Positions 28,841-29,104 of a stretch of DNA of 64,000 bases are shown piece by piece (the stretch's first letter is position 1; each line of letters opens with the position of its first letter). The position numbers and the translations under genes are program-made. The notes under the pieces were generated by a model, which saw nothing but the letters and a program-made list of their open reading frames with translations, did not search any database and was not told the DNA's origin. Origin of the DNA: Escherichia coli (GTDB lineage Bacteria; Pseudomonadota; Gammaproteobacteria; Enterobacterales; Enterobacteriaceae); the NCBI RefSeq assembly GCF_003334305.1, contig NZ_QOWS01000002.1. One strand, written 5' to 3'.

Positions 28841-29019
28841 ATGGTGGTGGGGGAAGGATTACTCAGCGCTGCGCGCTTCGCCCTTCGGGTCGTTGCCTGC
28901 GGCAACGCTCTCTCGCTGGCGCTCAAGTCGAACCTTGGTCGAAGCTTCTCATCCTTCCCCGCTTGGGCAGAATATTTAATTGCGGATTCGTTTGAGAGTT
29001 CACGGACTTTTGAAAGTGA
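28841..29019 (-). ncRNA. rttR: rtT-like repeat unit downstream of tRNA-Tyr, beginning with a 19-nt copy of the tRNA 3' end
   Basis: tggtggtgggggaaggatt at 28841..28859 duplicates the 3' end of the adjacent tRNA; the intervening ~160 nt matches the known tyrT-distal repeat architecture. Confidence 0.5.
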
Positions 29020-29104
29020 TGGTGGTGGGGGAAGGATTCGAACCTTCGAAGTCGATGACGGCAGATTTACAGTCTGCTCCCTTTGGCCGCTCGGGAACCC
29101 CACC
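29020..29104 (-). tRNA. tyrT: tRNA-Tyr (anticodon GUA), 85 nt with encoded CCA
   Basis: Reverse complement reads GGTGGGGTTCCCGAGCGGCCAAAGGGAGCAGACTGTAAATCTGCCGTCATCGACTTCGAAGGTTCGAATCCTTCCCCCACCACCA. Confidence 0.95.

What the first reader, a model, noticed from the sequence alone, without database searches (positions are those of the whole stretch)
28841..29104. Single tRNA-Tyr gene with a truncated downstream repeat at the tyrT locus
Between narI and purU there is exactly one intact 85-nt tRNA-Tyr (GUA) gene. It is followed by one ~160-nt spacer unit and a 19-nt copy of the tRNA 3' end (tggtggtgggggaaggatt at 28841..28859). K-12, as I recall, carries tandem tyrT and tyrV genes plus rtT repeats here; the tandem arrangement is a known site of unequal recombination. 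The narI-to-purU spacing here is only 606 bp, consistent with a contracted locus.
Basis: partly seen in the sequence, partly recalled or inferred. Interest (0 to 1): 0.4.

Follow-up and report, generated by a model that had tools for sequence, protein, structure and literature searches.

The report
One-copy tyrT tRNA locus, E. coli
This E. coli strain has lost one of the two side-by-side tyrosine-tRNA genes at the tyrT locus by a clean 119-base deletion between the two identical copies, an ordinary, recurrent copy-number variant also seen in about 3.6% of complete E. coli genomes.

Summary
The 605-bp narI–purU spacer contains exactly one intact 85-nt tRNA-Tyr(GUA) gene (29020-29104, minus strand).

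The window is identical to E. coli strain A28. Its closest haplotypes, such as strain H15, show no mismatch over 3 kb and differ only by one extra 119-nt period (34-nt spacer plus 85-nt tRNA). This is a precise loss of one period of a tandem gene pair.

Junction-specific searches of 5,426 complete E. coli genomes gave these counts:
- tight tandem (tRNA–34 nt–tRNA): 2,909
- K-12-like tandem with an rtT-like unit between the genes: 1,921
- single-gene junction: 196
- exactly the window's architecture: 99

An independent case occurs in E. coli B. AS19 equals REL606 minus 294 nt, again with no mismatch. The two-gene state at purU occurs in 69 Enterobacteriaceae species, so it is ancestral.

The K-12 doublet and its collapse to a singlet by unequal recombination are classical knowledge. 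The finding is real and correctly interpreted, but already known and of low interest.

The parts
27981..28658 (+). narI (nitrate reductase gamma subunit), left boundary of the locus
   Evidence: 225-aa ORF. Annotated narI in the identical record A28.
28677..28708 (+). Intrinsic terminator-like hairpin plus T-run after narI, convergent with the tyrT transcript
   Evidence: Terminator scan, 9-pair stem then TTTTATGGGC. Function is inferred.
28659..28841 (-). 183-nt unique distal segment ('term') between the last rtT unit and narI. It is present in all architectures compared
   Evidence: Module dissection of window, A28, 98191, K-12 and O157.
28842..28860 (-). 19-nt copy of the tRNA-Tyr 3' end (AATCCTTCCCCCACCACCA on the transcribed strand). 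It closes the rtT unit
   Evidence: Direct repeat D1 with 178-nt spacing. Exact 19-mer positions.
28842..29019 (-). One complete 178-nt rtT repeat unit ('B' unit). The Rfam RtT match covers 28842-28973
   Evidence: RF00391 at 134.2 bits, model positions 1-130 of 130. Unit boundaries. It resembles the narI-proximal unit of K-12 and has a stop after MRSFDQGST, so there is no 29-aa tpr ORF.
29020..29104 (-). The single tRNA-Tyr(GUA) gene, 85 nt with encoded CCA
   Evidence: ARAGORN. Rfam tRNA. Identical to both K-12 copies.
29155..29182 (-). tyrT promoter: -35 TTTACA, 16-nt spacer, -10 TATGAT
   Evidence: Promoter scan, 10 of 12 matches with TG before the -10 hexamer. The 159-nt leader is identical in K-12, O157, 98191 and A28. 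Its identity as the tyrT promoter rests on established knowledge and on the primer lhm-T2 in PMC2887954.
29105..29263 (-). 159-nt promoter and leader segment ('L') between purU and the tRNA
29264..30106 (-). purU (formyltetrahydrofolate deformylase), right boundary of the locus
   Evidence: 280-aa ORF. Annotation in A28.

Best explanation
The window carries a contracted allele of the E. coli tyrT operon. In transcription order it reads: promoter and leader (L), one tRNA-Tyr gene (T), one 178-nt rtT unit (B), then a unique distal segment (term). It arose from the common tight-tandem allele L-T-34nt-T-B-term by loss of exactly one 119-nt period (34-nt spacer plus 85-nt tRNA). The loss occurred by homologous recombination or replication slippage between the two identical, directly repeated 85-nt tRNA genes. 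The surviving gene keeps the tyrT promoter upstream and the tyrV-type downstream context, so it should be expressed and processed normally. The strain is left with two tRNA-Tyr genes, this one and one elsewhere that is presumably tyrU, instead of three. Shown here: the architecture, the exact 119-nt difference from otherwise identical haplotypes, the recurrence, and the ancestral two-gene state. Inferred: the recombination mechanism, normal expression, and a small or neutral fitness effect.
For: One tRNA-Tyr and one RtT are present. Module maps show window = strain 98191 or H15 minus (34+85) nt. Window versus H15 over 3,001 against 2,882 nt gives 0 mismatches and a single 119-nt gap whose sequence is the spacer plus the tRNA. 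The seven best haplotype matches over 14 kb (about 100.0% identity) span 14,120 nt in two pieces, which is +119 nt. Recurrence: the junction L-T-B, which cannot exist in a two-gene locus, is found full-length in 196 of 5,426 complete genomes. The exact 463-nt L-T-B-term architecture is found in 99 genomes, at identities from 100% down to 96.3%, so on many different haplotypes. PGAP annotates a single tRNA-Tyr in AS19-RrmA-, 2013C-4225 and GF47. Independent event: REL606 versus AS19-RrmA-, both E. coli B, gives 0 mismatches in 2.4 kb and one 294-nt gap, which is one period of the A-containing tandem. Homology-length dependence: deletion through the 19-nt repeat (A-B junction) occurs in only 1 of 5,426 genomes, against 196 through the 85-nt repeat. 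Ancestral state: a tRNA-Tyr 3' end followed 20-50 nt later by a tRNA-Tyr 5' end occurs in 69 species-representative Enterobacteriaceae genomes. In 65 of these purU lies in the fetched DNA. The promoter is intact. A28 gives 2 genomic places for a leader+tRNA+rtT query, the same as its two-gene relatives whose locus counts as one place. So there is exactly one further tRNA-Tyr-like site. [quoted passage not shown]
Against: No sequencing reads were available, so an assembly error in A28 itself is not formally excluded. Among the haplotypes that are about 100% identical over 14 kb, A28 is the only single-gene one listed. That pattern fits either a very recent event or an artefact. The recombination pathway (RecA-dependent or slippage) is not distinguishable from sequence. 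The second tRNA-Tyr site in A28 was counted but not inspected. About 400 genomes fell into none of my three junction classes, so the census is approximate.
Confidence: 0.9

Rival explanations
1. Assembly collapse: the strain really has two tandem tRNA-Tyr genes, and the assembler merged the two 85-nt identical copies.
For: A28 is the only single-gene genome among the about 100%-identical 14-kb haplotypes listed. Short tandem duplicates can be collapsed by small-k de Bruijn assemblers (general knowledge).
Against: The repeat period (119 nt) and the identical stretch (85 nt) are shorter than ordinary reads. The record is a finished circular chromosome. The same junction appears in 196 independently assembled complete genomes, including sets of closely similar isolates that all share it. 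It also appears in a laboratory E. coli B derivative, with a different deletion size. A short- and long-read-sequenced K-12 supF strain shows the same kind of loss.
Confidence: 0.06
2. Ancestral state: the single gene is the original arrangement, and the tandem pairs in K-12 and other strains are later duplications.
For: None specific. In principle unequal exchange can create as well as remove copies, and expansions do exist: up to 4 tight-tandem junctions in one genome, and four tandem copies in Citrobacter sp. MGH106.
Against: Two or more tRNA-Tyr genes next to purU are found in 69 species across Escherichia, Salmonella, Citrobacter, Enterobacter, Klebsiella, Kluyvera, Kosakonia and other genera. 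In E. coli at least 89% of genomes have a two-gene junction, against 3.6% with the single-gene junction. The window's flanks are identical to those of two-gene strains.
Confidence: 0.02
3. Selected dosage change: the loss is not neutral drift of an unstable repeat. It would be an adaptive reduction of tRNA-Tyr and rtT dosage in particular lineages. The deletion mechanism would be the same and only the evolutionary cause would differ.
For: Groups of similar genomes all share the single-gene allele. Examples are several 5.6-5.8-Mb human and bovine isolates at 99.1% identity, and five about 4.94-Mb human isolates at 96.3%. So the allele persists in clones.
Against: Persistence in clones is equally expected for a neutral change. 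The frequency is low (3.6%). No phenotype or expression data exist here. The number of rtT units also varies freely (1, 2 or 3), as expected for an unstable repeat.
Confidence: 0.1

Closest known systems
E. coli K-12 tyrT operon (tyrT-tyrV doublet followed by the 178-bp rtT repeats, '3.14 copies'; Egan & Landy 1978 and Rossi et al. 1981, cited from memory)
   Same: Same chromosomal position between purU and narI. The 159-nt promoter and leader are identical, the 85-nt tRNA is identical, and the 178-nt unit ends in the same 19-nt tRNA 3' end. The 183-nt distal segment is also the same.
   Different: K-12 has two tRNA genes separated by a divergent 175-nt rtT-like unit plus a 34-nt spacer, followed by three B units (1,255 bp). 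The window has one gene and one B unit (605 bp). The 29-aa tpr ORF of K-12's first B unit is absent.
Tight-tandem tyrT allele (tRNA-34 nt-tRNA-one rtT unit), e.g. strains H15 and 98191; the majority E. coli allele
   Same: Everything except one period. There are 0 mismatches over 3 kb with H15.
   Different: The window lacks one 119-nt period, that is, one tRNA gene and the 34-nt inter-gene spacer.
Laboratory 'singlet' derivatives of the tyrosine tRNA doublet (phi80 psu3 singlets, Russell et al. 1970, from memory; K-12 OV2 supF-A81, PMC12584984; E. coli B AS19-RrmA-)
   Same: One tRNA-Tyr gene is lost by exchange between the two identical copies, leaving promoter-tRNA-rtT. AS19-RrmA- has the same 605-bp architecture.
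   Different: Those arose in laboratory stocks from the A-containing doublet (a 294-nt loss in the B lineage). The window comes from a wild isolate (echidna faeces) and derives from the tight tandem (a 119-nt loss). Its anticodon is wild type.

Membership tests
tRNA-Tyr (GUA), bacterial class II tRNA | Cloverleaf with long variable arm and GUA anticodon, detected by tRNA-specific models | tested here: met
   ARAGORN gives tRNA-Tyr (gta), 85 nt, 29020-29104 minus strand. Rfam RF00005 scores 53.4 bits against a gathering score of 29.
tRNA-Tyr (GUA), bacterial class II tRNA | Sequence identity to the functional K-12 tyrT/tyrV product, including the encoded CCA end | tested here: met
   The 85-nt string is found exactly twice in the K-12 locus and in O157, 98191 and A28.
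RtT RNA (Rfam RF00391) | Score above the curated gathering threshold over the full model | tested here: met
   134.2 bits against 45, model positions 1-130 of 130, at 28842-28973 minus strand.
RtT RNA (Rfam RF00391) | Released by processing of the tyrT primary transcript, with an effect on the stringent response (Bösl & Kersten 1991) | not testable with these tools
   No expression data were available. Single-sequence folding is uninformative, with z = -0.49.
tyrT operon | Located between purU and narI, transcribed towards narI from the tyrT promoter (TTTACA-16-TATGAT) | tested here: met
   ORFs and annotation. Promoter scan. Leader identical to K-12.
tyrT-tyrV tandem doublet (K-12-type or tight-tandem) | Two tRNA-Tyr genes in direct repeat in the purU-narI spacer | tested here: not met
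   There is only one tRNA in the spacer and in the whole window. This failure is itself the finding.
Deletion by recombination or slippage between direct repeats | The missing segment equals exactly one repeat period, the breakpoints lie inside the identical repeat, and the flanks are otherwise unchanged | tested here: met
   119-nt gap = 34-nt spacer + 85-nt tRNA, with 0 mismatches in 3 kb against H15. The same logic gives 294 nt in AS19 against REL606.
Deletion by recombination or slippage between direct repeats | Dependence on RecA or on replication slippage | not testable with these tools
   This needs genetics. The only indirect hint is 196 genomes with the 85-nt-mediated junction against 1 with the 19-nt-mediated junction.

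The most novel reading that the evidence does not exclude
The tyrT locus may behave as a fast, reversible copy-number dial (1, 2, 3 or more tRNA-Tyr genes; 1-3 rtT units) whose settings are selected in particular lineages. On this reading the one-copy allele, fixed in whole clones and present in about 3.6% of complete genomes, would be an adaptive reduction of tRNA-Tyr and RtT dosage rather than neutral repeat instability.
Probability: 0.1. Interest if true: 0.4.

Novelty: already known. Interest (0 to 1): 0.1.

Why it matters
It matters little beyond bookkeeping. The strain has two rather than three tRNA-Tyr genes, one rtT unit and no tpr ORF. This affects tRNA gene counts, codon-adaptation indices based on gene copy number, and primer or recombineering designs copied from K-12. 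The by-product is a rough census: about 54% tight tandem, about 35% K-12-like, and about 3.6% single gene in 5,426 complete genomes, with two clean independent deletions. It shows that K-12 is not the typical architecture and that the locus is a small natural hotspot of unequal exchange. It could serve as a marker or as a model for rates of repeat-mediated deletion.

Tried and rejected
1) Hidden or degenerate second tRNA-Tyr in the spacer. Neither ARAGORN nor Rfam reports one. The rtT unit has tRNA-like pieces, namely the 19-nt 3' end and an inverted match to the T-arm, but it is scored as RtT, not as tRNA.

2) Ancestral single-gene state. This is rejected by the 69-species scan.

3) Loss of tyrV through the 19-nt repeat (A-B junction). 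This route is used in only 1 of 5,426 genomes and does not apply to the window.

4) Direct derivation from the K-12 architecture. This is unnecessary, because the identical-flank relatives are tight tandems.

5) Single-sequence folding of the rtT unit gave z = -0.49, which is uninformative.

6) Literature. The classical papers (Russell 1970, Egan & Landy 1978, Küpper 1978, Rossi 1981, Bösl & Kersten 1991) are not in the held library. Three searches failed for capacity, PMC329039 is not held, and one search was irrelevant. A paper on E. coli tRNA copy-number dynamics (PMC4539685) does not discuss tRNA-Tyr.

7) I did not locate and inspect the second tRNA-Tyr site (presumed tyrU) in A28. It was only counted.

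8) The census method has limits. It uses megablast with a stringent E-value, so that only full-length junction matches pass. About 400 genomes remain unclassified, for example those with an IS4 or an island insertion. It also counts genomes, not independent events.

Full report
**What is in the sequence**

The window is E. coli. Region 28400-29500 is 100% identical to the chromosome of strain A28, isolated from echidna faeces in Australia.

- narI ends at 28658 on the plus strand, and purU (minus strand) ends at 29264. The spacer between them is 605 bp.
- ARAGORN finds a single tRNA in all 64 kb: tRNA-Tyr(GUA), 85 nt, at 29020-29104 on the minus strand.
- Rfam confirms this tRNA. It also finds one full-length RtT element (RF00391, 134.2 bits against a gathering score of 45) at 28842-28973 on the minus strand.
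- A 25-nt direct repeat, 28836-28860 against 29014-29038 with 24 of 25 bases matching, has 178-nt spacing. Its core is the 19-nt 3' end of the tRNA.
The spacer is 605 bp, not 606.
- The tyrT promoter (TTTACA, 16 nt, TATGAT) lies at 29182-29155 on the minus strand and is intact.

**Anatomy by comparison**

I cut the spacer of five genomes at each copy of the 19-mer. I use these module names: L is the 159-nt promoter and leader, T is the 85-nt tRNA, A is a divergent 175-nt rtT-like unit, B is the 178-nt rtT unit, and term is the 183-nt distal segment. In the direction of transcription the architectures are:

| Genome | Architecture | Spacer length |
|---|---|---|
| K-12 | L-T-A-34 nt-T-B-B-B-term | 1,255 bp |
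| O157 | L-T-A-34-T-B-B-term | 1,077 bp |
| Strain 98191 | L-T-34-T-B-term | 725 bp |
| Window / A28 | L-T-B-term | 605 bp |

RefSeq annotation of these records agrees. The window's B unit carries the TGA that truncates the tpr reading frame to 9 codons, as in the narI-proximal unit of K-12. The 29-aa tpr ORF exists only in K-12's first B unit among the genomes examined.

**Origin of the window's allele**

I searched window 22000-36000 against 5,426 complete E. coli genomes. The best non-self matches at about 100.0% identity (H15, A7, NCTC9088, 41, TUM12355, WL164, DETEC-E601) all span 14,120 nt in two pieces, which is 119 nt more than the query.

Strain H15 is annotated with two tRNA-Tyr genes 34 nt apart and one RtT. 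A global alignment of 3 kb (narJ to ychJ) between H15 and the window has no mismatch. It has one gap of 119 nt, whose sequence is the 34-nt spacer plus one 85-nt tRNA.

This is the signature of a deletion between two identical direct repeats. Exactly one period is lost, the breakpoints lie anywhere inside the 85-nt identity, and nothing else has changed. Whether it happened by RecA-mediated unequal exchange or by replication slippage is inference.

**How common is it**

A single-gene locus produced this way has a junction, leader-tRNA-B unit, that cannot exist in a two-gene locus. In a two-gene locus the first gene is followed by A or by the 34-nt spacer, and the second gene is preceded by the 34-nt spacer.

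I therefore searched junction queries with E-value limits set so that only near-full-length single alignments pass.

| Junction or architecture | Genomes of 5,426 |
|---|---|
| L(100 nt)-T-B(100 nt), single gene | 196 |
| Whole L-T-B-term (463 nt), as in the window | 99 |
| Tight tandem T-34-T | 2,909 |
| K-12-like T-A | 1,921 |
| A-B (loss of the second gene through the 19-nt repeat) | 1 |

- The 99 exact-architecture genomes range from 100% down to 96.3% identity, so the allele sits on many different haplotypes.
- About 400 genomes fit none of the classes. Examples seen were an IS4 next to narI and a genomic island abutting the tRNA.
- The counts are of genomes, not of events, and the classes are not strictly exclusive.
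- Spot checks of annotation confirm a single tRNA-Tyr between purU and narI in AS19-RrmA-, 2013C-4225 and GF47.

**An independent event**

REL606 (E. coli B) has L-T-A-34-T-B-term. AS19-RrmA-, also of E. coli B descent as I recall, has L-T-B-term.

Over 2.4 kb the two differ by no substitution and by one 294-nt gap, which is exactly A+34+T. The same 605-bp end state has therefore been reached from two different parental architectures.

[quoted passage not shown] From memory, doublet-to-singlet conversion of the tyrosine tRNA genes by unequal recombination has been known since Russell et al. 1970. The 178-bp repeat has been known since Egan & Landy 1978. These papers are not in the held library.

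**Direction of change**

I scanned one genome per bacterial species for a tRNA-Tyr 3' end followed 20-50 nt later by a tRNA-Tyr 5' end. This gave 69 loci, all Enterobacteriaceae: Escherichia albertii, Salmonella enterica arizonae, Citrobacter, Enterobacter, Klebsiella, Kluyvera, Kosakonia, Leclercia and others.

- purU is in the fetched DNA in 65 of the 69, and narI in 45.
- Exact tRNA copies lie 112-122 nt apart in about 41 loci and 223-299 nt apart in 13 (my count from its table).

Two genes at this site are therefore ancestral, and the single gene is derived.

**Consequences**

A query made of leader, tRNA and rtT gives two places in A28, the same number as in its two-gene relatives, where the whole locus counts as one place. 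A28 therefore has one further tRNA-Tyr-like site, presumably tyrU, and two tRNA-Tyr genes in all instead of three.

tyrT and tyrV share the tyrT promoter, and tyrU is the third copy (PMC2887954). The surviving gene keeps that promoter and the normal 3' context, so normal expression is expected. This is inferred and was not tested. RtT function remains uncertain in the literature (quoting Bösl & Kersten 1991).

**Rivals**

- **Assembly collapse.** This cannot be excluded without reads. It is unlikely given the short repeat, the finished assembly and the recurrence of the allele in 196 independent assemblies.
- **Ancestral single-gene state.** This is contradicted by the outgroup scan.
- **Adaptive dosage reduction.** This remains possible but is unsupported.

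**Verdict**

The thing itself is an ordinary, already known kind of repeat-mediated copy-number polymorphism. It is routinely annotated in RefSeq, so the interest is low.

Noticed in passing
window 12111-12176 and 12647-12712 (repeat 11872-12171 / 12408-12707): There are two rdlD antitoxin RNA hits (83.6 bits each) in a 536-nt tandem unit that is 100% identical over 300 nt. REL606 has three Ldr toxin genes at the same site between kdsA and chaA. The ldr/rdl array therefore also looks one unit shorter here.
   Followed up: partly
window 28923-28952 (minus strand, within the rtT unit): The tpr (protamine-like protein) frame is cut to 9 codons (MRSFDQGST, then a stop). The 29-aa ORF is intact only in the first rtT unit of K-12 among K-12, O157, H15, REL606 and the window. 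This questions how general tpr is as a gene.
   Followed up: partly
window 28726-28755: The palindromic sequence gtcggatgcgcttcgcttatccgacctaca looks like a REP element between the rtT unit and the narI terminator. This was judged by eye and not tested.
   Followed up: no
L009 (E. coli AVS0193, NZ_CP124455.1) 1-3090: In some genomes the tRNA-Tyr next to purU abuts a block of lipid-modifying genes instead of rtT and narI. The genes are fatty acid desaturase, sterol desaturase, PAP2 phosphatase and an F390 synthetase-related protein. This looks like an island inserted at or next to the tRNA 3' end.
   Followed up: no
L010 (E. coli A33) 1206-2405; also TUM1887: An IS4-family transposase is inserted between narI and the rtT unit in some strains, including one with a flanking haplotype about 100% identical to the window.
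   Followed up: no
E. coli genome search; L066 (Citrobacter sp. MGH106) 7081-7460: Expansions exist as well as contractions. Some E. coli genomes have up to 4 tight-tandem tRNA-Tyr junctions, 12 such junctions lie on plasmids, and one Citrobacter has four tRNA-Tyr genes at a 120-nt period.
   Followed up: no
E. coli genome hit H40 (NZ_CM176478.1, strain CKJ_1000_3.1, 4.33 Mb): This genome matched the 1.1-kb locus query at only one place, an 85-nt tRNA-Tyr at 97.6% identity. It therefore seems to lack the whole narI-tyrT-purU segment.
   Followed up: no
window 62250-62343 (minus strand): There is a tryptophan operon leader (RF00513, 93.1 bits), as expected for this part of the E. coli chromosome.
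   Followed up: no
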